DNA of 64,000 bases from a virus (IMGVR_UViG_3300048930_000409:12212-76211), one strand, 5' to 3'; positions 4,382 through 62,604 are shown, counted from the stretch's first letter. Numbers and translations are program-made. The notes: a model not told the origin generated them from the sequence alone.

Positions 4382-4469
4382 CCCCGCAAGACAGGCACAC
4401 GCCCATCGCTTGACGGTATGATGGGTGTGTGCCGTGGACGGACCCCGGCCCGCATCGGAGGATGCGACG

Positions 4470-7622: not shown

Positions 7623-7802
7623 ATGACCCTCGATGAACTGATTACCCAGCTACAGGAACTCCGAGCCGACGCCCCGGAATACGGACCCCGCGACGTCAAA
7701 ATCGAGTGGACGTGGATGCAGGCATCCATCGAAGACGTCGATGCTGGAACAGGACGGTTCGGGGACCGTGTCATCGTCATCAAGGCAGACGTCGACGAAT
7801 GA
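7623..7802 (+). CDS. small hypothetical protein
   Basis: GGGAG RBS; ATGA overlap with helicase. Confidence 0.55.
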   Translation: MTLDELITQLQELRADAPEYGPRDVKIEWTWMQASIEDVDAGTGRFGDRVIVIKADVDE

Positions 7803-9968: not shown

Positions 9969-10363
9969 CATGGATCGCGCCGTGGTACCAGCGCCAGCGT
10001 GAGTACCATCGCTCGGCCGAGTGGGGGACCGCCGCCGTCGCACGGGTGAAGTTCGCAGCGGGGGAGGCGTGGTCCGCCGAGGATTACGCCGACCTGATGC
10101 CGCCGATGCCTGATCTGTCGACGCACGCCACGCGTCAGCGGTCCGTCGTTCACATCAGGGACTGGCGGACCGGAGACGTGACGTACATCTGTCTTGGCGA
10201 CATGACGGTGGACGCGATTCTGTTTCAGCAAGGAAAGCTGCGGCCCGACCGGACCGCGTTTGATGAAGCCTGGCATACCGCCTACGATCAGGAGCTCGAC
10301 TACCGTGCCCAAGTCAGTGCCTACGAAACGCAAACCCACGGCCGCTACGACGGCGCAGGTTGA
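9965..10363 (+). CDS. hypothetical protein
   Basis: GTGA overlap; about 100-nt overlap with next gene. Confidence 0.45.
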   Translation: MTWIAPWYQRQREYHRSAEWGTAAVARVKFAAGEAWSAEDYADLMPPMPDLSTHATRQRSVVHIRDWRTGDVTYICLGDMTVDAILFQQGKLRPDRTAFDEAWHTAYDQELDYRAQVSAYETQTHGRYDGAG

Positions 10364-11360
10364 GGAGGCGTTCTACATTCTGGAACGCGACGGCATCACG
10401 TTCTCGCTGCTGTCGACGTTCCGCGACTGCCGGTGGAAGGCCCGCAACTACATGAAGGGCATCACAAAGATGTCCATGGGCTTCCCCATCGTCTTCGGCA
10501 ACATCGTCCACGCCGCGCTGGAACACGCCTACCAGGGTGTCCGCGACGGCGAATGGGAGGGAGTCATTCCCCGGCCCGTGTTGGGTAATCTGCTTGACAC
10601 GTTGGAGGGAACGTTCAAGAAGGAAAACCCTCGGATGAATGCCGAGTTGACCCAGGACCTCGAGCTCACCATGCTGATGACACAGCAAGTGTTGCCCCGG
10701 TATTTTTCGTTCTGGTGGGAACGGGATAGCGAGCTCACGTGGCTCGAGACCGAGCAGGAGTTCAAGTTGCCGTGGGCGATCACCTTGCCTGCGGTGTCGG
10801 TGAACGGTATCTGGCAGCCCCGCGTGGTCAAGACGTACTTGCGCGGGAAGATCGACGGGTTGTTCGAGCGTGCGTCCGGGGTCGGGTCGTTCGAGACCAA
10901 GACCAAGGGCCGTGTCGAGCCGGGCAACCTGATGTCCATGTTGCCGTACAATCTGCAAGTCATGATCTACTTGCTGGCGGCCGAGATCCTGTACGGCAAA
11001 ACGCCGACGTCAGTGATCTACAACATCGTGCGACGCCCGCAACTGCGACAGAAGCAGTCCGAGAACCTGGCGCAGTTCGCGCAGCGCATCGGTGAAGACA
11101 TCGATGATCGGCCCGACTTCTATTTCATGCGGATCAACATGGACCTCGAGCCGAACGACCTGAAACGGGGTCGGGCGAACCTCGACGACTTGCTCCGTGA
11201 CTTCGTGCTGTGGTGGATCGGCGAGGGCGGGCACTACCCGAACGACAACCACTGCGAAAACAAGTACGGGACGTGCGAGTTTCTGAACTGGTGCGACGGG
11301 AGCATGCGGAACCAGTACTACATCCGGCCGAAAATGTTCAGCGAATTGGGGGACGTATGA
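10263..11360 (+). CDS. PD-(D/E)XK (RecB/Cas4-like) exonuclease
   Basis: FGNIVH, EQEF, GKIDG, ETKT, QVMIY; N-terminal Cys plus C-terminal C..C..C cluster. Confidence 0.85.
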   Translation: MKPGIPPTIRSSTTVPKSVPTKRKPTAATTAQVEEAFYILERDGITFSLLSTFRDCRWKARNYMKGITKMSMGFPIVFGNIVHAALEHAYQGVRDGEWEGVIPRPVLGNLLDTLEGTFKKENPRMNAELTQDLELTMLMTQQVLPRYFSFWWERDSELTWLETEQEFKLPWAITLPAVSVNGIWQPRVVKTYLRGKIDGLFERASGVGSFETKTKGRVEPGNLMSMLPYNLQVMIYLLAAEILYGKTPTSVIYNIVRRPQLRQKQSENLAQFAQRIGEDIDDRPDFYFMRINMDLEPNDLKRGRANLDDLLRDFVLWWIGEGGHYPNDNHCENKYGTCEFLNWCDGSMRNQYYIRPKMFSELGDV

Positions 11361-13462: not shown

Positions 13463-14320
13463 GTGAACTATACTGAAGAGATCGTCATCATCGGCGGCGG
13501 CATGGTCGGGCGCGTAGCCCAGCGATACATGCCGGATGCCTTGATTCTGGATTGGGGGCCGCCCCCGGTCGCCACGCCCCGGCCACAGACGTACGGCGCT
13601 ATCTACTGGTGGGAGCCAGTTGCCGACCTGCCGTGTGTCCAGTTCCAGGTCCTGACCACCATCGACGGCGAGACGCCCACCCCCGAGGGCATTCGCGCGT
13701 ACAAGGAACGCGTGGGCAAGGGATTCGAGGTCCAGACCCGGCCCGATGCCGTCGCCCGGCAGTTCCAGCCGCTGTCGCACGGGTATGCGCCGACGTCGTT
13801 CCCAGCGCCGTCCCGCATCATGTACCGCGCCAGAGTCGAGCGTATCGACCCCGACGTCCGCATGCTGCACATGGTGAACGGGGACACGTACCTGTACACA
13901 CACCTGGTGTCGACTATCCCGCTGCCGGCGCTGCTGAAGATGCTGCCGTTCGACGCCGTCGATCAGTTCGAGCATATGGAGTTCCGGTCGCGCCCCATCT
14001 TTGTCACGGTTGCTCCTGACGACCATGAAGCCCGCACCGTGCTCCAGGTCAACTACTCGACGACGGGCAATGCTTACCGCGAGACGCGGCATCTGGACGG
14101 GTCCACCCATCGGGAGTATGCTTCGGCGCCGATGTACACCGAGTTGCCCGTGAAAAAGCTGGTGCCGGGGCGCATCTACGACGCTTTGCAATCCGCCGAA
14201 CTGTTGCTGCACCTGCGTGGGATGGCCATCCACAGCTTCGGCCGCTATGGTCGGTGGGACTCGGACGAGTTGCTGCACATGACCGACGCCCAGCTCCGGA
14301 CGTTCGCGTCACTTCTCTAG
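13463..14320 (+). CDS. FAD-dependent oxidoreductase-like protein (HemY/UDP-galactopyranose mutase-like fold)
   Basis: IVIIGGGMVG Rossmann motif, YTHLVSTIPL, C-terminal FGRYGRW. Confidence 0.7.
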   Translation: MNYTEEIVIIGGGMVGRVAQRYMPDALILDWGPPPVATPRPQTYGAIYWWEPVADLPCVQFQVLTTIDGETPTPEGIRAYKERVGKGFEVQTRPDAVARQFQPLSHGYAPTSFPAPSRIMYRARVERIDPDVRMLHMVNGDTYLYTHLVSTIPLPALLKMLPFDAVDQFEHMEFRSRPIFVTVAPDDHEARTVLQVNYSTTGNAYRETRHLDGSTHREYASAPMYTELPVKKLVPGRIYDALQSAELLLHLRGMAIHSFGRYGRWDSDELLHMTDAQLRTFASLL

Positions 14321-14328
14321 GAGACATC

Positions 14329-14463
14329 ATGAAGATACTTCGTGCCCTTTGGCGCCTGATCGTCAGCGACGACAAGCCATTCAGTCAGGAATGGATGGAT
14401 TCCCTCAAGTACGACCGCCAGGGATGGGCGGACGCCCCCTCATGGAAGAGGCTGGGACGATGA
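14329..14463 (+). CDS. small hypothetical protein
   Basis: AGGAG RBS; ATGA overlap. Confidence 0.5.
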   Translation: MKILRALWRLIVSDDKPFSQEWMDSLKYDRQGWADAPSWKRLGR

Positions 14464-15431
14464 GCGAGTGGGGAAAGATCTGGCACGACCAGTACGGGTT
14501 CAATCGGAAGTTTCGGCCCGACCCCGAGACGGACGCGGAACGAGCCGAGCAGGTCAAGGACATTGCCCTGTTGATGCAGTCTGAGATCCATGAGTTGCTC
14601 CAGACCGTGGCGTGGAAGAAGCATCGGAAGGACACCCGGCACCGCCCGAACATGGCGCATAGCCATGAAGAACTCACGGACATCTTCAAGTACTTCGTAA
14701 CGCTGTGCAACCTGTTTGATGTCACGCCAGAAGCGCTCCAGCGCTTGTACTGGGCTAAGTCGGCCGTGTGCGAGCAGCGATATGTCGAAGAGTGGGTGTC
14801 CGACTACGCGCGGGGCAACCTGCGGGCCAAGGTGGCCATCGTCGACCTGGACAACGTCATCTTTGACTACATCGATCACTTCGGCAACTTCCTGTACCTG
14901 CAGCCCCTGGGCGACGACGTACGGCTGACTCTGATTCGCCTGATCGGCGAACGCAAGTGGATCAGCGCCGAGTCGACAGGCATTCCGGTGTCGGTGTTCG
15001 AGGCGTACAAGCACATGTACCGGACCAGCGGCGCGAAGGCGCACCTGCCCTTGATGCCGTACGCCAAGGAATTTATGCAGGCGCTTCGCGGGTTGGGATA
15101 CGTCATCATCGTTGTCACGTCACGGCCGATTGACCGCTACCCGAACCTGATGATGGACACGATTGCCAGTCTGAACCGACACGGCCTGCCGTACGACCAC
15201 GTCTGGCACGGCCCGTCAAAGAAAACCGTCCTCGTCGAACGGCTGTCGCCGATGCCGTCGCAGATCTTCGCGATCGACGATGACCCGAAGTATGTCCAGG
15301 AATACGTCAGCCTGGGCATTCCTGTCTTCCATGTGTTGAACGGAGGGACGACCCCGCTGACACAGACGGTCGGGCGCGTACCCGTCGCCGACCTGGAAGA
15401 TGCGTTGAACTGCCTGCACCTGATCGGATAG
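14460..15431 (+). CDS. all-alpha dNTP pyrophosphohydrolase (dimeric dUTPase/MazG-like) fused to a HAD 5'-nucleotidase-like domain
   Basis: SEIHELL..VAWKKH...EELTD; then DLDNV, VTSR, IDDD HAD motifs. Confidence 0.85.
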   Translation: MSEWGKIWHDQYGFNRKFRPDPETDAERAEQVKDIALLMQSEIHELLQTVAWKKHRKDTRHRPNMAHSHEELTDIFKYFVTLCNLFDVTPEALQRLYWAKSAVCEQRYVEEWVSDYARGNLRAKVAIVDLDNVIFDYIDHFGNFLYLQPLGDDVRLTLIRLIGERKWISAESTGIPVSVFEAYKHMYRTSGAKAHLPLMPYAKEFMQALRGLGYVIIVVTSRPIDRYPNLMMDTIASLNRHGLPYDHVWHGPSKKTVLVERLSPMPSQIFAIDDDPKYVQEYVSLGIPVFHVLNGGTTPLTQTVGRVPVADLEDALNCLHLIG

Positions 15432-15436
15432 CACCC

Positions 15437-16591
15437 ATGCCTGACTACGCTGACGCGGGCCACCGCCCGCACGCCGACCACCGGGGGGAGACCCCTGACT
15501 TCAAGATCACGAATGGCCCCGAGTCCATTTCCGTGACGCTGGACACCTGGGGGCCTCGCGACTACTACTCCGCGATGTTCGACTACCTCCAGTCGAACTG
15601 GGGCGGGGCGCCGTCGCGGATTCAGGAGGCGTTGGACCACCCAGAAATTGACGTCGACCACGATGTCGAAGTGTACCTCGACGCGTGCTTCGGCGGGCGC
15701 ACACTCCAGCAAGTGTTGGAGGGCATCACGTTCTGGTTCACCATCGACGGCGTAACTCGCGCCATGACTCATGAGATGGTGCGTGCTCGGTTCGCCGCGT
15801 TCATGCAGCATGGCGGGCGCGACAACGACTGGCGCCATCGGGACTGGACCATGCCCGAGACGATCCGCCGGGCCTCAGGCGCTCGCATGCCGCCGCATCC
15901 CACAGCGCCCTGGGACGGCAAACGAGGAAAAGACCGAGTCGACGCCAAGAACCAGTGGCTGAGAGAACAGCTTGACGCCGACCCGACACTCCGGTGGACG
16001 TGTATCACCGACCACCAGCCTGTCGAAGCGCTGCTCGGCGCCTACGACGAAATCCTGCCCGATGACCGGTTCGGGTTGCAGGATGTCATCGAACACCACC
16101 TCCGTGAAGGCAAGCGCATCTACGCCGCGCTGGTCGACGCAGGCATACCGTGGCAGGACGCGCGGCGGCTGCTGCCCATCGGCACGCAGACGTACATCCA
16201 CGGGATTTACAACTTCATTTCGTTGCGCGACTTCCTGGCCAACCGGATGGAGTTCATCATGGACTGGGAAATCAACTGCGTCGCGCAGCTGATGTACCGC
16301 GAGATCCTGATGAAGTGCCCGCCTCTCATCGGCAAGTACCTGGGGTCGCACTCCGACCGCCAGGGCCGTGCCGCGTTCGCCGGACTGGACTCGTGGCCCC
16401 CGGACATGAAGTACCAGCCCACGTTCGAGCAGGAAGACCCCGTGCTGACGCCGCGCCAGCATCGCCGTGAGCAGATGCCGTTCTGGGTCCTGGCCCAGTC
16501 GTCGTTGGACGGCGGGCCGGTGAAGTGGATTCCCACGAACGGCACCTACCCCCACGACCATCCCGACGCCCCCAAGCCGAGGACTCGGTGA
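15437..16591 (+). CDS. divergent ThyX (flavin-dependent thymidylate synthase) family protein
   Basis: FTIDGVTRAMTHEMVRAR, GIPWQDARRLLP, FLANR..WEI match the ThyX fold; RHRx7S signature altered to RARx7G. Confidence 0.8.
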   Translation: MPDYADAGHRPHADHRGETPDFKITNGPESISVTLDTWGPRDYYSAMFDYLQSNWGGAPSRIQEALDHPEIDVDHDVEVYLDACFGGRTLQQVLEGITFWFTIDGVTRAMTHEMVRARFAAFMQHGGRDNDWRHRDWTMPETIRRASGARMPPHPTAPWDGKRGKDRVDAKNQWLREQLDADPTLRWTCITDHQPVEALLGAYDEILPDDRFGLQDVIEHHLREGKRIYAALVDAGIPWQDARRLLPIGTQTYIHGIYNFISLRDFLANRMEFIMDWEINCVAQLMYREILMKCPPLIGKYLGSHSDRQGRAAFAGLDSWPPDMKYQPTFEQEDPVLTPRQHRREQMPFWVLAQSSLDGGPVKWIPTNGTYPHDHPDAPKPRTR

Positions 16592-16714
16592 CCGTGCGGC
16601 GGGTCCACCCCCTGAACGCCTGGTTCCTGGGGGTGTTGGAGAAGCACCACGGGGCTGACCTGGACAGCCTCGCGGGATACGGTGACGACCATCAACGAAG
16701 TGACGAGGAGTACA

Positions 16715-17614
16715 ATGGCGAAAGTGAAGCGCATGCCCCCGAAGAAAGCCGGCGACGTGTTGGCCAAGGCCCCCAAGGCCAAAGCCGACGACGCCCCGGC
16801 GTTCGCCCTACCGACTGACCTGTCGGAGCCGTCCGATTCGTTGCAGGATTACAGCATCCTGCTGTACGGCGCGAAGAAGATCGGCAAGACCACCTTGGCG
16901 TCGATGTTCCCTGGCGCCTACTTCCTGATGACGGAGCCGGGCGGCCGGGCGCTCCGCATCTACCAGACGCCTGTCACCACGTGGAAGACGGCCAAGGACG
17001 CGTTGCGGGCGCTGGAGAAGAACCCCGGCAAGTTCCGCACCGTCGTCGTCGATACGGTCGACATGCTGTACCAGCTGTGCTTCGCGCACGTCGGCAAGAT
17101 CGAGGGGTGGGATCACCCGTCCGAGGAAGCGTGGGGCAAGGGATGGGCGGCGCTCCGCAAGGAGTTGTCCGACTACATCACGCGCCTGATGGCGTTGCCG
17201 ATGGGCGTCGTGCTGATCTCCCATGCCACGGAGAAGGAGGTCCAGAAGAGGGACGGCACGAAGTACGACCGCATCCAGCCGACCATGTCGGGCATGGCCC
17301 GCGACTTGGTCGAGGCCATGGTCGATATCTGGATGTACTACGACTACGACGGCGAGGAGCGCGTGTTGCTGCTCCAGGGAGACGACCACATCGCGGCGGG
17401 CCACCGCCTGCAGGAACACTTCAGGGCACCGGACGGCGTCCGGTATGTGCGGTCGGTCCCCATGGGGAACGCGCCTGAAGTGGGGTTCAAGAACCTGATG
17501 GCGGCCTTCGACAACACGTTGCCGGTCCCCGACGACGTCGACGAGCCGCCGCCCGCCGTCGCGGCCCCGAAGGCCGTGAAGAAGATGGGCGTCAAGAAGA
17601 AAGCGAAGGCGTGA
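16715..17614 (+). CDS. AAA_24/Sak4-like phage ATPase (recombinase)
   Basis: LLYGAKKIGKTT, VVVDT, WGKGW, LISH. Confidence 0.85.
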   Translation: MAKVKRMPPKKAGDVLAKAPKAKADDAPAFALPTDLSEPSDSLQDYSILLYGAKKIGKTTLASMFPGAYFLMTEPGGRALRIYQTPVTTWKTAKDALRALEKNPGKFRTVVVDTVDMLYQLCFAHVGKIEGWDHPSEEAWGKGWAALRKELSDYITRLMALPMGVVLISHATEKEVQKRDGTKYDRIQPTMSGMARDLVEAMVDIWMYYDYDGEERVLLLQGDDHIAAGHRLQEHFRAPDGVRYVRSVPMGNAPEVGFKNLMAAFDNTLPVPDDVDEPPPAVAAPKAVKKMGVKKKAKA

Positions 17615-17760
17615 TGGCGACATCGACCAATCCCCGTGACTGGAAAATCGAGTTGGCGTTGCTGCTCCGCGAGTTGACCGAGATCGCCAAGGTCGCGCGG
17701 GCCAGTTTGGAACAGGAAGCCGAGCACGCTCGGAAAATTCGGGAACGGTCCACGCGATGA
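17614..17760 (+). CDS. small coiled-coil protein
   Basis: Coupled overlaps on both sides. Confidence 0.5.
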   Translation: MATSTNPRDWKIELALLLRELTEIAKVARASLEQEAEHARKIRERSTR

Positions 17761-18671
17761 AGGTCAGCGTCAAGCGCGTCGGGTCGCGGCCGGTCGACCA
17801 TCCGTCCGAGGACCGCCCACAGCTGTGGCAAAAGTCCATGGCGGTGTGCATCCCGTCCTCGGGGCGGCCCGCGCTCTTGGCTAAGACGCTGCACACGCAA
17901 CCGTTCCTGAACGACCGGTCCACCTTCATCGGCGTGGCCACTCACGAAGCCGCCGAGTACCGGACGATGCTTCGCACGGTCGCGCCGTCAGTCCGACTGG
18001 TGACGTACGACAACCCCGAGGGGTCTATTGCGGTCTGCCGTGAGCACTTGCGACAGGCCGCGTTGGACGCCATTCCTGGCGGCCGGATGGACCGCTTCTG
18101 GGTCGTCGTCACGGACGATAACGCGTCGTACTCGTACACGGCGCTCCAGACCTTGGTCGGGGTCGCGTCGTCGTGGCGGGAGCAGCCCTGCATCGTCGCA
18201 GGGATGCACGGCACGGCGGCGCACTTCGACCGTCACCGCATCGGAGAAATGGAGGTGCATGCCGGGTATCGATCCTATCCGCAGGTCGCCATGATCTTCC
18301 AAGTCTACCCCGCGTCGATGTACGCGGACTACGCGTATCCCGCTGATGCGTATGGACTGGATGACCGGCACCTGGCGTTTTGGGCCATTGCGAAAAAAGG
18401 TTTGACCCGTAGTCAATTCCGCGTTGCAATGGACGCACCGTTTCGGAAGTCGCGGTACCAAGCTGGCGGGCAAGGCGACGCGAGGAAACGGGCACGAAAG
18501 ACGGGGCTGGCCATCGCACGGTTGGCCCTGGACTTCCCTGAATTGGTCGGGACACGCGGCACGTTCCCGACTCCATGGCAAATCATCTTTGCCCTTGCCG
18601 AGGGCAAGCAGGTTGACCGGTTGGCGGCCGGCAGCATGCGTAGTGAATCCGCCTTGATCCACCAGGAGTAG
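17757..18671 (+). CDS. GT-A fold glycosyltransferase, TET-associated (TAGT/GREB1)-like DNA base glycosyltransferase candidate
   Basis: VCIPSSGRP, R-helix, VVVTDDN, LDD, AGG motif order. Confidence 0.7.
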   Translation: MKVSVKRVGSRPVDHPSEDRPQLWQKSMAVCIPSSGRPALLAKTLHTQPFLNDRSTFIGVATHEAAEYRTMLRTVAPSVRLVTYDNPEGSIAVCREHLRQAALDAIPGGRMDRFWVVVTDDNASYSYTALQTLVGVASSWREQPCIVAGMHGTAAHFDRHRIGEMEVHAGYRSYPQVAMIFQVYPASMYADYAYPADAYGLDDRHLAFWAIAKKGLTRSQFRVAMDAPFRKSRYQAGGQGDARKRARKTGLAIARLALDFPELVGTRGTFPTPWQIIFALAEGKQVDRLAAGSMRSESALIHQE

Positions 18672-18673
18672 TC

Positions 18674-19573
18674 GTGGCCAAGAAGACCGCAGCACCCCAG
18701 ACCGATTTCCAGAAGGCTCTCAAGAAGTCCGGCGCCAACTGGGACTCCGCGCGTGAGAAGGCCGCCACCAGCAAGGGCGGCGCCTACCAGGAATTCGACG
18801 ACGGCAAGTACCTCGCTCGCGTCCAGAAGATGGAGCCCGGCGTCAACACCAAGGGCCCCTACATCATGGTGATGTTCAAGTTCGTGGACGGCGACTACGA
18901 GGGCCAGACCAAGCCGCTGTTCCAGAACCTCCAGACGGACGAGAACCTCTTCCACGCCGCCAAGCTGATCGGTTCCTTCGGGTACGAGATCCCCGAGAAC
19001 ATCGCCGACATCGAGAGCATCTGCGAAGCCATCACGGCCGAAAAGCCGCTCTGCAAGATCACCATCAAGACCAAGGGCGAGTACCAGAACGTCTTCCTCG
19101 ACAAGGTCATCTCCAGCGACGAGGGCGACGAGGACGCCGAGGAGGAGGACGGCGACGAGGACGCCGAGGAGGAATCCGCCGAGGCCGAGGCCGAGGACGA
19201 GGACGAGACCGAGGAGGCCGACGAGGAGTCCGAGGAAGAGGAATCCGAGGACGAGGACGAGGACGAGGAAGAAGAGGAAGACGAGGAGGAGGCCGACGAG
19301 GACGACACGGCCGAACTCGAGATCGGCATGCGAGTCGAGGCCGAGACGGCCAAGGGCACGCGCCAGGGCGTCGTCCACAAGATGGACCCCGCCGCCGAGA
19401 CCGTCAAGATCCGCGATGACGCGGGCAAGATCTTCACGGTGCCCGCCTCGGCCGTCTCGCTTCTGGCCGATGTCCCCGACGAGCCCGAACCGCCTCCGGC
19501 CAAGCCGAAGGGCGTGAAGAAGCCGGCCGCCCCGGTGACCCCGGCGCCGACGACCAAGAAGAAGACCAAGTAG
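18674..19573 (+). CDS. DUF669-like single-stranded DNA-binding protein with long acidic tract
   Basis: DDGKYLARV...FKFVDGDYEGQ...YQNV; about 65-aa D/E tract; near the Sak4-like gene. Confidence 0.75.
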   Translation: MAKKTAAPQTDFQKALKKSGANWDSAREKAATSKGGAYQEFDDGKYLARVQKMEPGVNTKGPYIMVMFKFVDGDYEGQTKPLFQNLQTDENLFHAAKLIGSFGYEIPENIADIESICEAITAEKPLCKITIKTKGEYQNVFLDKVISSDEGDEDAEEEDGDEDAEEESAEAEAEDEDETEEADEESEEEESEDEDEDEEEEEDEEEADEDDTAELEIGMRVEAETAKGTRQGVVHKMDPAAETVKIRDDAGKIFTVPASAVSLLADVPDEPEPPPAKPKGVKKPAAPVTPAPTTKKKTK

Positions 19574-19603
19574 CACTGCCCGGCCCCGACCGGGTGTAGG
19601 ACC

Positions 19604-19640
19604 ATGCGGGGGCGGGCGCGATGCCTTCCCCCGCATTTCC
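19604..19640 (+). terminator. possible terminator hairpin
   Basis: ATGCGGGG...CCCCGCAT followed by TT. Confidence 0.45.
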
Positions 19641-19657
19641 TGTCACGGAGGACACCT

Positions 19658-20038
19658 ATGTCAGACATGCCGTCATCGTTCGCCGAATTGTTGCGGGGCC
19701 TGCAGGACCCTCCAGCGGACCCGCCCGTGCCCCCGGACCCCGACACCATGGACGTCGGCGAGTCCCGCCCCGTGACCCTGCAGGAGGCGTTGTGGGTCGA
19801 AGAGATCCGGGCCATGGCCGAACCATCCGCCAAGATCCGGGCCATCACCGCGTTGCTGCATGTCCGGTCAGGCGAGACGGTCAAGCATGAGCAGTTGGCC
19901 ATCATGCCGCTGGAAGACTTTCACCGGGCCGTGTCTCGCATGATGGCGGACCTGATGCCCAAACTGGAGAAGGCTCAGCACCTCGCGTCGATGCTGAACT
20001 TGTTCCGTCAGACGCCGCCGAACGGGAGCGGACATTGA
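19658..20038 (+). CDS. hypothetical protein
   Basis: GGAGG RBS. Confidence 0.65.
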   Translation: MSDMPSSFAELLRGLQDPPADPPVPPDPDTMDVGESRPVTLQEALWVEEIRAMAEPSAKIRAITALLHVRSGETVKHEQLAIMPLEDFHRAVSRMMADLMPKLEKAQHLASMLNLFRQTPPNGSGH

Positions 20039-20307
20039 AGGCCCAGCTGAACGACGGCCCACAGGTGTGGTTCTGGTGCGCTGGGTGCGAGACGCATCAT
20101 GCAATCGACCCAACCAAGTGGACATGGAACGGCGACACTGAACGGCCAACGTTCCGGCCATCGGTACTCGTGACCTACACATTCGGGGTCGAGCGCACGC
20201 CCAAGCGTTGTCACTCGTTCGTAACCGACGGGCATATTCAGTACCTCGACGACTGCACACATGCGCTCGCCGGGCAGACCGTGCTGTTGGAGGATGTCGA
20301 GCTATGA
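20035..20307 (+). CDS. DUF6527-like Cys/His protein
   Basis: CAGC..HH..WTWNG..PTFRPS..CHSFVTDG.IQYL.DCTH.LAGQTV. Confidence 0.75.
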   Translation: MKAQLNDGPQVWFWCAGCETHHAIDPTKWTWNGDTERPTFRPSVLVTYTFGVERTPKRCHSFVTDGHIQYLDDCTHALAGQTVLLEDVEL

Positions 20308-20939
20308 ACCCCAGGAAGTTCACCGCGCTGGTCGGCCGGTTCTTCCAAGACTGCATGGGAGTCATGGCCCCGAAGAATTCAGACTACAATCCGGACGCCG
20401 CCGTTCTACTGGATGTGTTCCGGGCGGCCTGTGAAGAAGGGTATCCCCCGGAAACGGTGCTGCGCGTGTTTCTCCGCAAACACTGGACTGTCATCCGGGG
20501 ATGGACCCAGGGGCACGTGCATCTGTCCGAGGGACTGGACTCCCGAATGCATGATGCCGCGAACTACATCGGCATGCTGTACATACTGTCCGTCCCAGAA
20601 TATCGGGACGAAATCTTCGCAGGTATCTTGAAACTCGAGGGGCAAGCATGCGCGTGCGGGTGCGTCGGACAGCTGGCAGTCAGGGAGTCATACGACGGGA
20701 ATCGAGTCAGAGACGAGCTCCTGTTGCCCCCACGGTGCGAACACGGCGCGCTGTTCCTGTGGCTACTGAGATTGAAAAGTACTTTGGATTCGAGTCCCGC
20801 GTCGTGGCCCATGACACGGAAGGTACTGGACTCGTTCCGTACGGCCCAGTCAGCTATTGGGGCTACGCCCCCGCCCGACCGTTCGCCTTCGCGTACTGCG
20901 ACGCCACCGGCCGCACGGCCTACGTCCGATACACCGTAG
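20304..20939 (+). CDS. Nmad1/DUF1599-like nucleotide-modification-associated protein
   Basis: KNSDY...SEGLDSRMHDAANY; GGAGG RBS. Confidence 0.65.
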   Translation: MNPRKFTALVGRFFQDCMGVMAPKNSDYNPDAAVLLDVFRAACEEGYPPETVLRVFLRKHWTVIRGWTQGHVHLSEGLDSRMHDAANYIGMLYILSVPEYRDEIFAGILKLEGQACACGCVGQLAVRESYDGNRVRDELLLPPRCEHGALFLWLLRLKSTLDSSPASWPMTRKVLDSFRTAQSAIGATPPPDRSPSRTATPPAARPTSDTP

Positions 20940-23113
20940 ACCCGTATACGCGCAAGCCGCTGATCGAAAACGACGAAGACTGGGACCACATCGTCGCGCT
21001 GCACGCCAGCGAGGAGTTCATCAAGGTCGGCCACAACATCGGCTATGACATGCGGATGGATCGGATGGTCGGGGCGCCTATTCTGGGCGATATCCACGAC
21101 ACGATGATTCTGGCGCACGTCATCACGGGCGGCGACGAGCTGATGTACGGCTTGAAACCGTTGGCCAAGAAATACTTGGACTACCCGGATGACGACGAAA
21201 AGATCCTCGAGGCGGCCGTCAACATGGCCCGCCGTGCCGCCAAGGCACAAGGGTTTTTGATTGCCGGGGGCAAGAAAGAGGTCGAGCGCGGCGACCATGT
21301 CGTGTTCGCGGGCAGCAAACCGGCCAAGGCCGACTACTGGCTTGGTCCGGAAGAGATGTGCGAGGAGTACGCTGTCGGCGACGTCCGGCGCACCATGCTG
21401 ATGTTCCTGCTGTGGTTCGAGCGTCTGATGCGCGACCAGCGAGGGGCTGTCACGTACGCCCGAGAGATGCAGTTGTTCCGGGCTCTCCGTCGGATGGAAG
21501 ACCGGGGTACGCGGGTCGACCCCGTGCATGCGGCGAAGCTGGTGAAGTGGTACAACGCTTACGCCGCCCGCATGCGCCGATGGGCCGATGCCAACGGGGC
21601 CGAGGGCGTGAACTTCCGGTCGCCCAAGCAGCTGTGCCGCATCTTCTACGATGAACGTGGCCTGGAACCGGCGTACACTAAGAAAGGTCACGAGAAAATC
21701 GAGCTCGCCCGCGCCATGGGCGAGGAACCCGATTGGGAGGCGTTGAAGAAGCATAGGTCGTTGGGCAAGGACCAGTTGGCCGAATGGGGCGGCAAAGACG
21801 AACTGACCGACACGTACAAAGACGAGATGGCCAAGGCCATCTTGGAATGGCGGGCGGCCAAGCAGAGCATCAGTTCGTTCCTGAACATTTACGAGAAGTT
21901 CTGGTATCCCGAGGGGCCGGTGTACCAGACCGAAGAAAATCTCGCCGAGTACAACCGGCGCCTCACCCTGTCGCCCCAGGAGAAGGTCGAATGGGAAAAG
22001 GACGAGTGGGTGTTCGTCCTGCACCCGAACTACAACCAGACCGGGGCCGTGACTGGGCGTATGACGTGCTCCGACCCGAATCTGCAGCAGGTCGCCTCTG
22101 CGACTACTGGTTTGCGCAAGGCCGACATCCCGAGCCGACCGAGAGAATGCTTCGGCCCGCGACCCGGATGCATCTGGTATCTACCCGACTACTCGCAGGT
22201 GGAAGTGTGGCTCTTCGCGTTCCTCTCCGGGGAACCGAACATGAAGGGCCTGCTCTTGTCTGGACACGATTTCCACAGCGGAGTCGCGTCAAAAACGTTT
22301 ACCTCGCGACCGGACTACGAAGAGCGGAGCAAGTATTACCGGAAGCTGGCCAAGCTGATCATGTTCGGCAAGCTGTATGGTGGTGGTGTTGGTTCACGGG
22401 AGAAGCCGGGCCGCATGACCAAACTGCTCCAGATGCCGTTCGACGAAGCGAAGGAGTTCATCGAGTCGTTCGATGAGGAGTTCGCCCAGGCCACCGCGTT
22501 CATGAAGCGCATGGCCAAGGACGCCAAGCGTACCGGCGAGGCGTTCAACATCTTCGGCCGGCGCTACGTCCTGGGCCCGGACTGGGCCTACAAGGTCGTG
22601 AACTATCTGATCCAGGGTGCCGCGGCGGACATCCTGAAGAATGCCACCATCCGGCTGGACTGGATGTTGCAGACGCGCTGGGAGATCCTCGACCCCCGGT
22701 GCCGCATGATCAACTCCATCCACGACGAGTTCATGGTCGAGGTACCGTACACCGTCCATTCACGGCGCCTGATGTACGAGATTATCTACACGATGCAGAT
22801 GGATTCCGCCCTGGCCGGGTTGCCGGTGCCGCTGCCGATTGGCATCAAGACCGCCAAGAAGCGATGGTCCCACACCACGGACGTGGACATTCCCGACTGG
22901 GTGAAAGGTGGCGTGCCGCGTGGCCCGGAGGGCACTCGATACTTCCGTGATCTGGAACGACATATGCAGGATTGCCCGTATACGGAATCCTATGCCGGGG
23001 CGCAAGCCCAATTTGCCCGCACGCGAGCTGCTCTTGATTTACGCGACGCTGAGCGCGAGCCAGAGCCAGATCGGGCTGCTCCGCGACGAAATCGAAGAAG
23101 AACGGCGGCTTAG
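20759..23113 (+). CDS. family A DNA polymerase with 3'-5' exonuclease
   Basis: DTE, HNIGYD, YAVGD exonuclease motifs; TGRMTCSDPNLQ, DYSQVE, KLIMFGKLYG, IQGAAAD, IHDE; start uncertain. Confidence 0.95.
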   Translation: MATEIEKYFGFESRVVAHDTEGTGLVPYGPVSYWGYAPARPFAFAYCDATGRTAYVRYTVDPYTRKPLIENDEDWDHIVALHASEEFIKVGHNIGYDMRMDRMVGAPILGDIHDTMILAHVITGGDELMYGLKPLAKKYLDYPDDDEKILEAAVNMARRAAKAQGFLIAGGKKEVERGDHVVFAGSKPAKADYWLGPEEMCEEYAVGDVRRTMLMFLLWFERLMRDQRGAVTYAREMQLFRALRRMEDRGTRVDPVHAAKLVKWYNAYAARMRRWADANGAEGVNFRSPKQLCRIFYDERGLEPAYTKKGHEKIELARAMGEEPDWEALKKHRSLGKDQLAEWGGKDELTDTYKDEMAKAILEWRAAKQSISSFLNIYEKFWYPEGPVYQTEENLAEYNRRLTLSPQEKVEWEKDEWVFVLHPNYNQTGAVTGRMTCSDPNLQQVASATTGLRKADIPSRPRECFGPRPGCIWYLPDYSQVEVWLFAFLSGEPNMKGLLLSGHDFHSGVASKTFTSRPDYEERSKYYRKLAKLIMFGKLYGGGVGSREKPGRMTKLLQMPFDEAKEFIESFDEEFAQATAFMKRMAKDAKRTGEAFNIFGRRYVLGPDWAYKVVNYLIQGAAADILKNATIRLDWMLQTRWEILDPRCRMINSIHDEFMVEVPYTVHSRRLMYEIIYTMQMDSALAGLPVPLPIGIKTAKKRWSHTTDVDIPDWVKGGVPRGPEGTRYFRDLERHMQDCPYTESYAGAQAQFARTRAALDLRDAEREPEPDRAAPRRNRRRTAA

Positions 23114-23163: not shown

Positions 23164-25317
23164 ATGGCATCCGGTAATCCGCTTCCGCTGTTCGAGGCAC
23201 ACGGGGTCCAGTTCGAAGGGTTCACCGACGATCAGGCCTACGGGACGTGTCCGTTCACCGGCAAGAGCAAGAAGTTCTACGTCAACAAGACCACCGGCCT
23301 GTGGGACTCCAAGAACACGGGCAAGTCGGGGAACATCCCGCAATTCCTCTCAGAGATGGCCTTGCAGTACGCGGCGGCGATGACGCCCGTGCTGCTGAAG
23401 AAATTGGCCGCCGACCGGGGCGTCGACCCTATTGCGTTCGAGGGATGGAGCATCGGATGGAATGGGTCCGAGTACACGGTGCCTGCGTCGGGCCCTGATG
23501 GACTGGTGACCGATATCCGGTTCTACACCCCCGGTCGGAAGATGCGGTCGACTACGGGCGCCAAAACGAACCTGTTCGGCGCCCACCGGTTGAAGGAAGA
23601 CAACACGGGCATCGTCTTCGTGTGCGAAGGCGAATGGGATGCCGTGGCCTGGGCCTGGGTGCTGAAGACCGCCAACAAAGCCGGGGCGGTTGTCGGCGTG
23701 CCGGGTGCGGCCACGTTCAAGCCTGAGTGGGCAACGTACCTGCGGAACAAGCGGGTGTTCGCCATGTACGACCACGACAAGGCCGGGCGCGAGGGACTGC
23801 AGTTGTGCGCCGAACGGTGCGCCAACACGGCGACGAACGTCTCAGGGCTGACGTGGCCTGACGACACCCCAGACGGGTGGGACGTCCGCGACGAGGTCAA
23901 GGCCAACTCGTCGAACATCCTTCGCATCAATACACTGGTCCGCACCTTGATGGGGCGGTTCGAGCCGGTGACGGTGGCCAAGGGCATGAAGAATGCCAAG
24001 CCGCCCGTGGCCCCGCCGCCCGCCTCCCGCAAGGGTGAGGCAAACACGTTGCCGCCTCCCGGGGCCAGCCGCGTGTCCACGTTCAAGGCTCCGTCGCTGG
24101 AGAAGGTGGAGGAGACGTTCCGGAAGTGGTTGTTCCTGGACAACACAGACGCTCTGCGTATCATGCTGGCGTGTGTGGTATCCCAGCAAATCGACGGGTC
24201 GCCCATCTGGGTCTTTCTGGTGGCGCCGCCCGGCGGGTCCAAGACCGAACACCTGAATTCGCTGTCGACGGTGGCCCACGTCATGATGACGTCATCGCTG
24301 ACGCCGCACTCCCTGATTTCGGGGGCGAACTTCAAGAGCAACGAAGACCCGTCGTTGATTCCACAGCTGGACGGCAAGGTCCTGGTCATCAAAGACTTCA
24401 CCGCGATCATCGGCATGCGTGATGCCGACAAGGAAGAAATCTTTGCCATCCTGCGCGATGCGTACGATGGCCACTGTGGGAAGGTATTCGGCAATGGCAT
24501 TCAGCGCAAGTACGACTCGCGCTTTACGATTCTTGGAGCAGTTACACCACGCATTTATGACCTTGGCTCCAACCACGCTGCCTTGGGAGAACGGTTCCTC
24601 AAATTCACGCTCGGAGATAACCTCGACCACGTTGCCGAGGAAGACATCATCCGGCGAGCCATTACCAATATCAATCGCGAGACGTCCATGCGGGCCGAGC
24701 TCGCGGACGTCGTCAACGCGTTCCTGACCCAAACGGTCAAGACCGACGTGGTGCCCACCATCCCAGAAGAGATCATGAAGCTGATCATCAATCTGGCGCG
24801 GTTCGGTGCCCGCATGCGGGGGACGGTCTCCCGCGATCAGTTCCGCCACGACGTCATGACGTCGCGGCCCTCGGCCGAGGTCGGGTCACGTCTGGGCGTC
24901 CAGATGGCGAAGTTGGGGCAGTCGTTGGCTATGGTGGCCGGGCGCACCGAAGTCAACATGGACGACTACCGGCTGATGAAGAAGACGATGTTGGATACCA
25001 TCCCCCAGCGACTGGAGGACATGGTCCGACTGATGTACCGGGCGTGCCCAACCCGTAATCACTACATGTCGGCGCGGGAACTGGAGATGGTGACCCGGTA
25101 TCCCTCGGCGACGGTCATCCGGTTGTTGCAAGATTTGATCGTGCTGAACGTCGTGCGGCGGGAGGTCGGTGAGGGCGCCGTCGCGGCCAAGCCCCGGTAC
25201 ACGCTGTCGGATTACATCCGCCGCGCCTTGAACCAAGCGCACCTGTACATCACGGAAGAGGAATATGCCCGCAAGTCGGCTATCGCCATGCGGATCAAGC
25301 GAAAGAAGGTTTCGTGA
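23164..25317 (+). CDS. TOPRIM primase fused to AAA+/MCM-like helicase
   Basis: CEGEWDA and DHD TOPRIM motifs; APPGGSKT P-loop, LVIKD, LRDAYDG, GERF; C-terminal wHTH-like region. Confidence 0.85.
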   Translation: MASGNPLPLFEAHGVQFEGFTDDQAYGTCPFTGKSKKFYVNKTTGLWDSKNTGKSGNIPQFLSEMALQYAAAMTPVLLKKLAADRGVDPIAFEGWSIGWNGSEYTVPASGPDGLVTDIRFYTPGRKMRSTTGAKTNLFGAHRLKEDNTGIVFVCEGEWDAVAWAWVLKTANKAGAVVGVPGAATFKPEWATYLRNKRVFAMYDHDKAGREGLQLCAERCANTATNVSGLTWPDDTPDGWDVRDEVKANSSNILRINTLVRTLMGRFEPVTVAKGMKNAKPPVAPPPASRKGEANTLPPPGASRVSTFKAPSLEKVEETFRKWLFLDNTDALRIMLACVVSQQIDGSPIWVFLVAPPGGSKTEHLNSLSTVAHVMMTSSLTPHSLISGANFKSNEDPSLIPQLDGKVLVIKDFTAIIGMRDADKEEIFAILRDAYDGHCGKVFGNGIQRKYDSRFTILGAVTPRIYDLGSNHAALGERFLKFTLGDNLDHVAEEDIIRRAITNINRETSMRAELADVVNAFLTQTVKTDVVPTIPEEIMKLIINLARFGARMRGTVSRDQFRHDVMTSRPSAEVGSRLGVQMAKLGQSLAMVAGRTEVNMDDYRLMKKTMLDTIPQRLEDMVRLMYRACPTRNHYMSARELEMVTRYPSATVIRLLQDLIVLNVVRREVGEGAVAAKPRYTLSDYIRRALNQAHLYITEEEYARKSAIAMRIKRKKVS

Positions 25318-44463: not shown

Positions 44464-44472
44464 CGCGGCCTC

Positions 44473-62592: not shown

Positions 62593-62604
62593 CCGTTCGG
62601 TGAC

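What the first reader, a model, noticed from the sequence alone, without database searches (positions are those of the whole stretch)
13463..20939. Candidate new DNA hypermodification pathway
Seen: a flavin oxidoreductase/mutase-like gene, a dUTPase/MazG-HAD fusion and an altered ThyX are clustered, with a TAGT-like glycosyltransferase and an Nmad1-like gene among the replication genes. Established: phage base-modification loci typically pair a nucleotide-level synthase, a dNTPase that removes the canonical nucleotide, and a post-replicative transferase that is often sequence-context specific. I see no ThyA-type hydroxymethylase, TET/JBP, PurZ or queuosine genes. Inference: a ThyX-fold enzyme makes a modified pyrimidine that is glycosylated in a CT/AG context, possibly with a sugar made by the UGM-like enzyme. 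This would explain the AG/CT patterning.
Basis: partly seen in the sequence, partly recalled or inferred. Interest (0 to 1): 0.88.

Follow-up and report, generated by a model that had tools for sequence, protein, structure and literature searches.

The report
Phage flavoprotein–ThyX-like nucleotide-tailoring gene module
An uncultured wastewater phage carries, inside its DNA-replication genes, a phage-only enzyme set (sugar-mutase-fold flavoprotein, pyrophosphatase-nucleotidase fusion, rewired ThyX, optional glycosyltransferase) that probably makes a thymidine substitute, but no chemistry is shown and plain thymidylate synthesis is not excluded.

Summary
They are a 285-aa flavoprotein closest to UDP-galactopyranose mutase, a dUTPase_2/NT5C fusion, and a ThyX-fold protein without the ThyX signature. 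There is also a GT-A glycosyltransferase with weak TAGT similarity. The Nmad1-like call is only a lead. No ThyA, TET/JBP or TGT gene is present.

The flavoprotein, fusion and ThyX-like genes keep the same order in every related locus with enough flank. They lie in the only module shared by phages that otherwise differ. The ThyX-like family was not found in 185,579 cellular species genomes.

Distant versions of the trio sit beside the polymerase in cultured Pbunavirus, Wifcevirus and Mycobacterium phage Aikoy. Pbunavirus DNA is reported to carry a sugar-derived thymidine of unknown genetic origin. This scan has flagged the cassette before on other DNA.

Two inferences failed:
- The flavoprotein is kept in relatives that lack the glycosyltransferase, so it is unlikely to exist to feed it.
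- The AG/CT-free stretch occurs in only 2 of 11 genomes carrying the trio.

Best reading (about 0.4): pre-replicative synthesis of a 5-substituted dUMP, decorated by the glycosyltransferase in this branch. Main rival (about 0.35): ordinary dTMP supply.

The parts
7706..9235 (+). SNF2-family helicase, the upstream end of the shared replication module
   Evidence: Pfam SNF2-rel_dom and Helicase_C. Conserved in all 10 related whole contigs.
10260..11360 (+). PD-(D/E)XK nuclease, which always precedes the trio
   Evidence: Pfam PDDEXK_1 6.9e-13. Synteny.
13463..14320 (+). 285-aa FAD-Rossmann protein of UGM/PPOX/amine-oxidase fold, lacking the UGM helical domain
   Evidence: The family has 314 representatives at E<=1e-10; those listed are mostly 270-300 aa.
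14349..15431 (+). Fusion of an all-alpha dUTPase_2/MazG-type NTP pyrophosphatase with an NT5C-type HAD deoxypyrimidine 5'-nucleotidase (likely start 14442)
   Evidence: The same fusion scores above both Pfam cut-offs in the distant contig L080.
15437..16591 (+). ThyX-fold protein with a rewritten signature (R-A/T-R ... MQHGGRDNDWRHR) and conserved N- and C-terminal extensions
16682..17614 (+). Sak4-like AAA_24 recombination ATPase (context)
   Evidence: Pfam 7.5e-40 and phrog_124.
17757..18671 (+). GT-A fold glycosyltransferase, weakly TAGT-like. An accessory gene present in about half of relatives
18674..19573 (+). SSB-like protein with an acidic tail (context)
   Evidence: phrog_7778.
20035..20307 (+). 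DUF6527 protein (context)
   Evidence: Pfam 1.3e-12.
20304..20939 (+). Candidate Nmad1/DUF1599-like small protein. It tends to accompany the GT and overlaps the polymerase start
   Evidence: KNSDY motif, no Pfam hit, ESM-Atlas lead, frame analysis, distribution.
20804..23113 (+). Family A DNA polymerase, only 22-27% identical to any GenBank phage polymerase. The ORF opens at 20648, but the coding signal begins near 20804
23164..25317 (+). Primase (Toprim), the downstream end of the shared module

Best explanation
The stretch holds a phage-only pyrimidine-nucleotide tailoring module that is inherited together with the phage's own replicase.

Core, present in all relatives:
- a UGM-fold flavoprotein;
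- a fused dUTPase_2-type pyrophosphatase and NT5C-type deoxypyrimidine nucleotidase;
- a ThyX-fold enzyme that keeps the dUMP-phosphate arginines but has lost the residues canonical ThyX uses for its signature, for folate/NADPH handling and for part of its flavin binding.

Proposed mechanism (inferred): the fusion enzyme supplies dUMP from dUTP and/or drains dTTP through dTMP to thymidine. The ThyX-like enzyme, working with the flavoprotein, puts a group other than a plain methyl on C5 of dUMP. The co-inherited polymerase incorporates the product in place of some or all thymidine. In this phage's branch, the TAGT-like GT-A, with the Nmad1-like protein, decorates the base on DNA. In a sister branch, an SDR plus a 183-aa protein replace them.

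Shown here: folds, homologies, motif losses, synteny and distribution.
Inferred: every chemical step, the substrate, and the existence of the modified base.
For: - The trio order is conserved in all related loci with enough flank.
- The replication module is the only part shared by 10 otherwise unrelated whole contigs.
- The ThyX-like protein is under the TIGR02170 cut-off. None of 121 relatives has the signature, the His79 position is T/A/S/N, and the His53 position is never His. Arg116, 118, 128, 243 and 270 align with the Arg78, 80, 90, 147 and 174 positions of T. maritima ThyX.
- The family's invariant motifs are absent from 185,579 cellular species genomes.
- dUTPase_2 plus NT5C fusion. 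It recalls the dTTPase of phiW-14, whose infected-cell pools lack dTTP and hold hmdUTP (PMC5977210). The dTMP nucleotidases of PBS2 and SP5C are from my own knowledge.
- The flavoprotein and fusion pair recurs, at 22% and 30% identity, in a 36% GC marine contig.
- A TAGT-like GT is present without any TET/JBP or ThyA.
- GT with Nmad-like and SDR with the 183-aa protein are mutually exclusive accessory sets on one core.
- Distant homologues of the trio flank the polymerase in Wifcevirus, Pbunavirus and Mycobacterium phage Aikoy.
- Pbunavirus F8 and 14-1 DNA has sugar-derived thymidine derivatives at TG, and no biosynthetic genes are assigned in the parts read (PMC12191111).
- SP-15 carries a second, divergent Thy1 protein that has been hypothesised to be the hmU synthase (PMC5977210).
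- Strong avoidance of C/G-only palindromes (CCCGGG 3 observed against 47.6 expected, CCGCGG 13 against 66) argues against global cytosine replacement, so a T-type change is the better fit.
Against: - No chemistry exists for any member of the cassette.
- The retained arginines and the Pfam Thy1 match are equally what a divergent but ordinary FDTS would show.
- No dNMP kinase, 5-hmdU DNA kinase or amino-acid:DNA transferase was recognised among the ORFs scanned.
- T-containing palindromes are avoided (GTGCAC 0 observed against 11 expected, GATC 271 against 431, TGCGCA 6 against 21). Thymidines in many contexts therefore still seem exposed to restriction.
- The GT's link to TAGT is weak, and the GT is missing from about half of the relatives.
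- Synteny may reflect common descent with the replicase rather than joint function.
- A later check within this scan priced the same bold reading for the Pbunavirus cassette at about one in three.
Confidence: 0.42

Rival explanations
1. Ordinary thymidylate supply. The ThyX-like protein is a very divergent but working flavin-dependent thymidylate synthase. The dUTPase_2 domain makes its dUMP substrate and removes dUTP. The NT5C domain and the flavoprotein balance pools or reduce flavin. The GT acts on something other than DNA.
For: - Pfam Thy1 at 66.5 bits.
- The arginines aligned with the dUMP-binding arginines of T. maritima ThyX are kept.
- No other thymidylate synthase is in the genome.
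- Many phages pair ThyX with a dUTPase (own knowledge).
- T-containing restriction sites are avoided as in unmodified genomes.
- A later check in this scan found that the plain reading fits the Pbunavirus cassette.
Against: - The protein scores below the thyX equivalog cut-off.
- All 121 relatives lack the universal RHRx7-8S signature and the His53 equivalent.
- A deoxypyrimidine nucleotidase fused to the dUTPase would destroy either the substrate or the product of a thymidylate synthase.
- A conserved UGM-fold flavoprotein has no role in known dTMP synthesis.
- The family is absent from cellular genomes, whereas ordinary thyX moves freely between phages and hosts (the comparison is from my own knowledge).
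Confidence: 0.35
2. The UGM-like flavoprotein makes an unusual nucleotide sugar, for example a furanose. The TAGT-like GT then transfers it to a hydroxymethyl pyrimidine made by the ThyX-like enzyme, specifically at CT/AG steps.
For: - Real homology to UGM, including the arginine aligned with A. fumigatus Arg327.
- GT-A fold with TAGT hits in homologues.
- Precedent: Rhizobium phage RL38J1 encodes a genuine UGM within a DNA-glycosylation pathway (PMC13326640).
- The genome holds a 968-nt AG/CT-free early unit.
Against: - The flavoprotein is kept in every GT-less relative, including a 98%-complete contig. It pairs with the pyrophosphatase-nucleotidase in a distant contig that shows no GT within its 10.7 kb.
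- It is about 190 residues shorter than the UGM it matches best and has no Pfam hit beyond a weak Amino_oxidase match.
- The AG/CT-free stretch is in 2 of 11 genomes with the trio and in 2 of 6 with the GT.
- There is no TG/CA-free stretch in Pbunavirus KTN6.
- The palindrome test was inconclusive.
Confidence: 0.1
3. Pool sabotage or counter-defence. The fusion enzyme and flavoprotein destroy host deoxypyrimidine nucleotides or a nucleotide-derived defence signal. The ThyX-like protein binds dUMP or poisons host thymidylate synthesis without making a new base.
For: - A pyrophosphatase-nucleotidase fusion takes a dNTP all the way to the nucleoside.
- The flavoprotein and fusion pair can occur with no ThyX-like gene in the 10.7 kb held of contig L080.
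- The cassette is phage-only.
Against: - The ThyX-like protein is conserved to near-invariance in catalytic-looking motifs.
- It is embedded in the replication module, not among early host-takeover genes.
- L080 ends 216 nt after the SDR gene, so a ThyX-like gene may simply lie off the contig.
Confidence: 0.08

Closest known systems
Uncharacterised flavoprotein, ThyX-like and HAD cassette beside the DNA polymerase of Pbunavirus (phiKTN6 gp65/gp59/gp57), Wifcevirus (WFH gp067/gp065/gp064, plus SDR gp063 and gp062) and Mycobacterium phage Aikoy (genes 78/80/87). Pbunavirus F8 and 14-1 carry hypermodified thymidine at TG (Yee et al. 2025, PMC12191111)
   Same: - The same three protein families lie next to the replicase. 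Family profiles built here match them: flavoprotein 1.4e-9, 3.2e-7 and 7.4e-9; ThyX-like about 1e-12 to 2e-17 (E-values scaled to 1e6 sequences).
- The Aikoy phosphatase matches the HAD half of the fusion at 1.5e-20.
- All lack RHR (RTR or RSR instead).
- The SDR and the 183-aa protein of the window's sister branch match WFH gp063 and gp062.
   Different: - Only remote homology: tblastn finds nothing at 1e-5.
- The window's ThyX-like protein has also lost the signature Ser/Thr and has long extensions.
- Its phosphatase is an NT5C type fused to dUTPase_2. The profile of this fusion did not match the 'polynucleotide kinase' type HAD proteins of Pbunavirus and Wifcevirus.
- This branch carries a TAGT-like GT instead of an SDR.
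- The polymerase is family A, not DnaE-type.
- No gene of any of these cassettes has been tied to the Pbunavirus modification.
Flavin-dependent thymidylate synthase ThyX (T. maritima TM0449, M. tuberculosis ThyX)
   Same: Thy1 fold. Arginines align with Arg78, 80, 90, 147 and 174 of T. maritima ThyX, and the TH(E/Q)xxRxR and WEI motifs are kept.
   Different: - His53, His79, Ser83, Ser88 and Tyr91 equivalents are replaced.
- The positions aligned with Arg165, Asn169 and His178 are not kept.
- There is an insertion of about 58 aa, and extensions of about 40 aa at the N-terminus and 85 aa at the C-terminus.
- The protein is below the TIGR02170 cut-off and the family is phage-only.
UDP-galactopyranose mutase, eukaryotic type (T. 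cruzi 4dsg, A. fumigatus 3uka), and the phage RL38J1 UGM used for DNA glycosylation (PMC13326640)
Pre-replicative thymidine replacement in phiW-14, SPO1/SP8 and PBS2 (dTTPase and/or dTMP nucleotidase plus hmdUMP synthase), and T4 gp56/gp42 for cytosine
   Same: The logic: a pyrophosphatase, and here a nucleotidase too, that removes the canonical nucleotide sits next to a thymidylate-synthase-like enzyme, and both travel with the phage's own polymerase (for phiW-14; the rest is my own knowledge).
   Different: The synthase there is of ThyA fold and folate-only. Here it is ThyX-fold with a partner flavoprotein, and the two hydrolases are fused.
TAGT (TET/JBP-associated glycosyltransferase, Pfam PF20691). 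That it includes the base-J glucosyltransferase is my own knowledge
   Same: GT-A fold with a DxD-like motif. Six of 16 homologues hit the TAGT model. The gene lies among DNA-replication genes.
   Different: The window protein itself gives no Pfam hit at E<=1. No TET/JBP partner is in the genome. No homologue is found in 50,697 GenBank phage records.
Bacillus phage SP-15 gp130, a second and divergent Thy1-family protein next to an SDR-like gene 129, in a phage with 5-(4',5'-dihydroxypentyl)uracil DNA (Kropinski et al. 2018, PMC5977210)
   Same: A divergent Thy1-fold protein in a phage with a hypermodified thymidine analogue, and an adjacent SDR-type reductase, as in the window's sister branch.
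   Different: That assignment was a hypothesis of the authors and was not tested. Homology of gp130 to the window protein was not tested here.

Membership tests
ThyX / FDTS | Thy1 fold (Pfam PF02511 above the gathering score) | tested here: met
   66.5 bits against a cut-off of 24.8.
ThyX / FDTS | NCBIfam equivalog TIGR02170 above its cut-off | tested here: not met
   56.8 bits against a cut-off of 87.9. Only residues 211-297 match.
ThyX / FDTS | ThyX signature RHRx7-8S(xR), plus the upstream His (T. maritima His53) | tested here: not met
   The window reads RARFAAFMQHGGRD and LEG. None of 121 relatives has the signature, and the His53 position is G, R, L, M, A, S or P.
ThyX / FDTS | dUMP-phosphate arginines (T. 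maritima Arg78, 80, 90, 147, 174) | tested here: met
   Arg116, 118, 128, 243 and 270 are invariant and aligned.
ThyX / FDTS | Makes dTMP from dUMP, CH2-THF and NADPH with bound FAD | not testable with these tools
   Needs enzymology or complementation.
UDP-galactopyranose mutase | FAD-binding plus beta-sheet domains of the UGM fold | tested here: met
UDP-galactopyranose mutase | Helical domain that binds the uridine, and the mobile-flap arginine | tested here: not met
   The protein is 285 aa against 473-519. The aligned range skips about 190 residues of the target.
UDP-galactopyranose mutase | Diphosphate-binding arginine (A. fumigatus Arg327) | tested here: met
   The invariant Tyr205-Arg206 aligns with FYRAT. 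The R327A and R327K entries score lower.
Dimeric dUTPase / all-alpha NTP pyrophosphatase (PF08761) | Pfam model above the gathering score | tested here: inconclusive
   The window's N-terminal half scores 21.2 bits against 22.9. Sixteen of 25 homologues match (best 1.2e-7), and the L080 homologue scores 27.7.
Dimeric dUTPase / all-alpha NTP pyrophosphatase (PF08761) | ExxE ... ExxD metal-binding motif | tested here: met
   E49, E52 and D81 are invariant and E78 is nearly so in alignment A4.
NT5C deoxypyrimidine 5'-nucleotidase (HAD) | HAD motifs I-IV and the NT5C model | tested here: inconclusive
   The motifs DxDxV, T-S-R-P, K and DD are invariant or nearly so. The NT5C model matches 6 of 25 homologues (best 1e-8) and the L080 homologue (28.5 against 24.8), but not the window protein.
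TAGT (PF20691) | Match to the family model | tested here: inconclusive
   The window protein gives no hit at E<=1. Six of 16 homologues match, best 7.5e-5.
TAGT (PF20691) | Association with a TET/JBP dioxygenase | tested here: not met
   No PF12851 match in the 76-kb genome at E<=0.1.
Nmad1 / DUF1599 (PF07659) | Match to the family model | tested here: inconclusive
   No Pfam hit at E<=1 for the window protein or six homologues. The nearest ESM-Atlas clusters (0.88) have DUF1599 on 18-22% of members.
5-hmdU-based thymidine hypermodification (Lee et al. 2018, 2021) | ThyA-type dUMP hydroxymethylase | tested here: not met
   No PF00303 match in the genome.
5-hmdU-based thymidine hypermodification (Lee et al. 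2018, 2021) | 5-hmdU DNA kinase and aGPT-Pplase transferase | not tested
   No dedicated model was run. Pfam scans of 32 of the window's and the upstream region's ORFs showed neither.

The most novel reading that the evidence does not exclude
The UGM-fold flavoprotein and the ThyX-like enzyme form a two-part flavin-iminium alkyl-transfer system.

In UGM, reduced flavin N5 captures C1 of a sugar. In ThyX, C5 of dUMP attacks a flavin-N5 iminium and flavin hydride then reduces the adduct. Combining the two would join a sugar-derived carbon chain, rather than a folate methylene, to C5 of dUMP. The product would be a polyhydroxyalkyl-uracil nucleotide.

This would account for:
- the loss of the folate/NADPH histidine in the ThyX-like protein;
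- the loss of the uridine-binding domain in the flavoprotein;
- the sugar-alcohol-like thymidines of Pbunavirus and the dihydroxypentyl-uracil of SP-15.

In this phage the hydroxyls would then be glycosylated by the TAGT-like GT. The mark may be confined to CT steps, which the AG/CT-free first early unit avoids so as to escape modification-dependent nucleases.
Probability: 0.15. Interest if true: 0.9.

Novelty: new variant of a known kind. Interest (0 to 1): 0.62.

Why it matters
Every phage pathway with a known synthase that replaces or hypermodifies a pyrimidine before replication starts from a ThyA-fold enzyme. A ThyX-fold route with a partner flavoprotein would be a second, independent origin and probably new flavin chemistry.

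The cassette is widespread. The flavoprotein family alone has 314 sequence clusters, and a related flavoprotein from a cultured carrier matches 362 GenBank phage records, 292 of them Pseudomonas phages. The carriers include therapeutic Pseudomonas phages whose DNA is known to be modified by unknown genes, so assigning it would matter for phage therapy, restriction evasion and sequencing of phage DNA.

This window adds three things:
- a far-diverged branch that has lost even the residual signature serine;
- a dUTPase_2/NT5C fusion that points to removal of a canonical deoxypyrimidine;
- a glycosyltransferase alternative to the SDR set.

It also removes two attractive but unsupported links: the flavoprotein as sugar donor for the GT, and the cluster as the cause of the AG/CT-free stretch.

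Tried and rejected
- Near and protein searches of GenBank phages with the region, the ThyX-like protein at 1e-5, the GT and a distant flavoprotein (P0240) found nothing.
Four IMG/VR scans with single distant members found nothing, as did P0240. An alignment of distant members was too divergent to scan with. One metagenome scan gave contig L080.
- Cellular genomes: pattern scans for the flavoprotein and the ThyX-like family found no relative. These are motif-based scans, so distant cellular relatives are not excluded.
No statement on binding can be made.
- Sequencing runs: the stretch is held by wastewater metagenome runs in two studies, kept only as contigs. No RNA holder is on record and no raw or long reads are available, so no modification signal could be sought and read laying was not used.
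- A palindrome test for protection of AG/CT-containing sites was not significant in this genome (p 0.20) and weak in G006 (p 0.02).
- A search for TG/CA-free stretches in Pbunavirus KTN6 found none.
- ESM Atlas on the ThyX-like protein returned only 'ThyX-like, viral' clusters.
- Considered and rejected: global cytosine replacement (C/G-only palindromes are strongly avoided), and relatedness to N4-like or M6-like phages (the polymerase is 22-27% identical to anything cultured).
- The Iyer et al. 2013 paper that defines TAGT and Nmad could not be fetched. Statements about those families beyond the Pfam names rest on my own knowledge.

Full report
**Setting.** The window is bases 12212-76211 of a 76,211-bp IMG/VR virus record with 63% G+C. 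It is held by wastewater metagenome runs from two studies. Early and replication genes run on the + strand up to about 32 kb, and structural genes run on the - strand. Nothing in GenBank phages is close. There is no nucleotide match, and the family A polymerase is only 22-27% identical to any cultured phage polymerase.

**The observation.** The finding's limits, 13463 and 20939, are the start of the first ORF and the stop of the last ORF of the set.

*Gene 1 (13463-14320, 285 aa).*
- It opens with GGGMVG and has no Pfam hit at the default threshold.
- An alignment of 25 homologues gave an AF2 model with pLDDT 92.5.
- Foldseek places UDP-galactopyranose mutases first, followed by protoporphyrinogen oxidase, polyamine oxidase and renalase.
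- The family profile finds only UGMs significantly in the PDB (4.3e-9). It aligns the invariant YDxLISTiP, YR(206)xT and GRFxxW motifs with UGM. Arg206 falls on the arginine that is mutated in the R327A and R327K entries.
- The protein is about 190 residues shorter than that UGM.

*Gene 2 (14349-15431, probable start 14442).*
- It is a fusion. The N-terminal half has the ExxE...ExxD motif of all-alpha NTP pyrophosphatases. It scores 21.2 bits against dUTPase_2, just under the cut-off of 22.9.
- The C-terminal half has HAD motifs I-IV.
- Across 25 homologues, 16 match dUTPase_2 (best 1.2e-7) and 6 match NT5C, the deoxypyrimidine 5'-nucleotidase family (best 1e-8).

*Gene 3 (15437-16591).*
- It matches Pfam Thy1 (3.4e-18).
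- Aligned to M. tuberculosis and T. maritima ThyX, it reads LEG for LEH and RARFAAFMQHGGRD for RHRxxSxxxxSxRY. The arginines aligned with Arg78, 80, 90, 147 and 174 are kept.
- The family has its own near-invariant motif, MQHGGRDNDWRHRxWTMPE, and conserved N- and C-terminal extensions.
- None of 121 relatives has the canonical signature.
- It scores 56.8 bits against NCBI's thyX equivalog model, whose cut-off is 87.9.

*Gene at 17757-18671.*
- It folds as a GT-A glycosyltransferase (pLDDT 86; TarP, TarS and a mannosyltransferase are the top hits) with an invariant DDN motif.
- Six of 16 homologues hit Pfam TAGT (best 7.5e-5). The window protein itself does not.

*ORF at 20304-20939.*
- It has a KNSDY motif but no Pfam match at E<=1.
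- Its nearest ESM-Atlas clusters (0.88) carry DUF1599 on only 18-22% of members. 'Nmad1-like' therefore remains a lead.
- Third-position G+C shows that this frame is coding up to about 20830, and that the polymerase frame takes over from about 20804.

*Absence claims.* Six-frame HMM searches find no ThyA, TET/JBP or TGT gene in the genome.

**Conservation.**
- The ThyX-like protein has more than 300 metagenomic relatives at E <= 0.001, and many of the 120 listed lie on contigs of roughly 50-78 kb.
- In 43 IMG/VR loci, the order PD-(D/E)XK nuclease, flavoprotein, fusion, ThyX-like, Sak4 is kept wherever the contig reaches far enough.
- Ten related whole contigs were compared. The only genes shared with the window by all or most of them lie in one block: SNF2 helicase, nuclease, the trio, Sak4, polymerase and primase, with SSB in about half. 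Structural genes are shared only with the closest contig, G006. The trio is therefore a fixed part of a replication module that moves between phage backbones.
- Motif scans of 185,579 cellular species genomes found neither the flavoprotein nor the ThyX-like family.
- The flavoprotein family has 314 representatives at E<=1e-10. The 150 listed are mostly 270-300 aa, apart from shorter fragments and a few longer proteins.
- One distant member lies on a 36% G+C marine contig, directly followed by a dUTPase_2/NT5C fusion that scores above both Pfam cut-offs, and then by an SDR. Identities to the window are 22% and 30%. The flavoprotein and the fusion are thus the tightest pair.

**Accessory genes.**
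- The GT is found in about half of the relatives and is absent from five whole contigs, one of them 98% complete.
- Relatives without it carry an SDR and a 183-aa protein just upstream of the polymerase. No locus has both sets. The Nmad1-like ORF mostly goes with the GT.
- The split follows polymerase similarity, so it may be a matter of descent.

**Link to cultured phages.** Notes from earlier in this scan pointed to Pbunavirus and Wifcevirus, and I tested this.
- A relaxed tblastn with the ThyX-like protein finds Wifcevirus and mycobacteriophage genes annotated as thymidylate synthase, ThyX-like or FAD-dependent.
- In Wifcevirus WFH, a terminator-bracketed operon next to the polymerase encodes gp067, gp066, gp065 (ThyX-like), gp064 (a HAD protein annotated as polynucleotide kinase), gp063 (SDR) and gp062.
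- Profiles built here match gp067 (1.4e-9) and gp065 (1.6e-12), with E-values scaled to 1e6 sequences. The SDR and 183-aa protein of the window's sister branch match gp063 and gp062.
- gp067 has homologues in 362 GenBank phage records, 292 of them Pseudomonas phages.
- In Pbunavirus phiKTN6, gp65, gp59 and gp57 lie next to the polymerase and match likewise.
- In Mycobacterium phage Aikoy, gene 78 ('oxidoreductase', 279 aa), gene 80 ('phosphatase') and gene 87 ('ThyX-like') flank the DnaE-type polymerase. They match the three profiles at 7.4e-9, 1.5e-20 and 2.2e-17.
- All these ThyX-like proteins read RTR or RSR instead of RHR.

**What the literature says.**
- Yee et al. report that Pbunavirus F8 and 14-1 DNA contains thymidine derivatives of 362 and 390 mass units. 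The authors describe these as consistent with a sugar-alcohol derivative and an aldopentose derivative. They replace about a quarter of thymidines, in a TG motif. The passages read assign no biosynthetic genes.
- Kropinski et al. noted a second, divergent Thy1 protein in SP-15 and guessed that it is the hydroxymethyluridylate synthase. They also recall the dTTPase of phiW-14.
- Lee et al. 2026 show a genuine phage UGM in a DNA-glycosylation pathway, together with a flavin-using ThyA homologue.
- No paper found describes a ThyX-fold enzyme with altered chemistry in phage DNA modification.

**Tests of the two specific inferences.**
1. *Sugar donor.* The flavoprotein is universal while the GT is optional, and the flavoprotein's constant partner is the pyrophosphatase-nucleotidase. 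It is therefore unlikely to exist in order to feed the GT.
2. *AG/CT patterning.*
 - The genome does contain a 968-nt run with no AG or CT at window 61834-62801 (about 1e-36 such runs expected by chance). It covers the first genes after an intergenic region that separates the two divergent gene blocks.
 - G006 has a 1132-nt run. The other nine trio-bearing genomes have none, and no comparable run for any other dinucleotide. These nine include three 100%-complete and one 93%-complete GT-bearing contigs.
 - Pbunavirus KTN6, whose family is modified at TG, has no TG/CA-free stretch.
 - Palindromes containing AG or CT are not significantly less avoided than the others.
A lineage-specific context enzyme is not excluded.

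**Weighing the readings.** Every domain of the core belongs to a family that handles uracil nucleotides: UGM (UDP-sugars), dUTPase_2, NT5C and ThyX.

*For a tailoring role:*
- A nucleotidase fused to a dUTPase next to a thymidylate-synthase-like gene fits ordinary dTMP supply poorly. It resembles the removal of the canonical nucleotide in phages that replace thymidine.
- The signature losses, the phage-only range, the constant flavoprotein partner, a TAGT-like GT with no known source of a hydroxylated base, and the modified DNA of Pbunavirus all point the same way.

*Against it:*
- No chemistry has been shown.
- The arginines that bind the substrate in ThyX are kept.
- No nucleotide kinase or known hypermodification enzyme was recognised.
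- T-containing palindromes are avoided.
- Synteny may simply follow the replicase.

Avoidance of C/G-only palindromes argues against global cytosine replacement.

**Status.** This scan has flagged the cassette repeatedly on other DNA. For the Pbunavirus case, a later check within the scan priced the bold reading at about one in three. This window contributes a very diverged branch with a different phosphatase architecture and a glycosyltransferase accessory.

Noticed in passing
window 61834-62801 (genome 74045-75012); G006 (contig of L003) 43526-44657: A 968-nt run with no AG or CT on either strand covers two small + strand ORFs (61915-62592 and 62661-62879). They lie just after an AT-rich, purine/pyrimidine-symmetric intergenic region (61460-61640). 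The closest relative, G006, has a 1132-nt run holding a 257-aa ORF that BLAST does not match to the window's ORFs. Nine other related genomes have none. The scan already holds this as a separate finding.
   Followed up: partly
related loci L007, L024, L039, L009/L010, L027, L031, L037, L040-L042 against L003, L005, L008, L014-L016, L019-L021, L038, L043: Two mutually exclusive accessory sets sit on the same core trio. One is the GT-A, often with the Nmad1-like ORF. The other is an SDR plus a 183-aa protein homologous to Wifcevirus WFH gp062. The split follows polymerase similarity.
   Followed up: partly
L038:10001-11533 and alignment A2, columns about 380-450: One ThyX-like relative carries a C-terminal acyl-carrier-protein-like (PP-binding) domain in which Glu takes the place of the usual Ser. 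Many relatives carry a four-cysteine insertion in the C-terminal extension that the window protein lacks.
   Followed up: no
window 20648-20939: The polymerase ORF opens at 20648, but third-position G+C indicates that it is coding only from about 20804 (GTG). The Nmad1-like frame is the coding one up to about 20830, so the two genes overlap by roughly 100-130 nt.
   Followed up: partly
whole genome G000 and G006: Several six-base palindromes are strongly avoided: CCCGGG 3 observed against 47.6 expected, CCGCGG 13 against 66, GCGCGC 12 against 54, GTGCAC 0 against 11. GATC is also low (271 against 431). The phage therefore still relies on losing restriction sites.
   Followed up: partly
Pseudomonas phage phiKTN6 NC_041865.1, about 49943-50580 (gp66, next to the flavoprotein gene): The gene just upstream of the cassette has a 573-nt run without AT, a 310-nt run without AC/GT and a 535-nt run without TA. 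This is probably a low-complexity protein.
   Followed up: no
window 724-1293 and 7004-7537: Outside the replication and structural modules, these two early genes, plus 4425-5195, are the only ones shared with G006 alone (50%, 47% and 32% identity).
   Followed up: no
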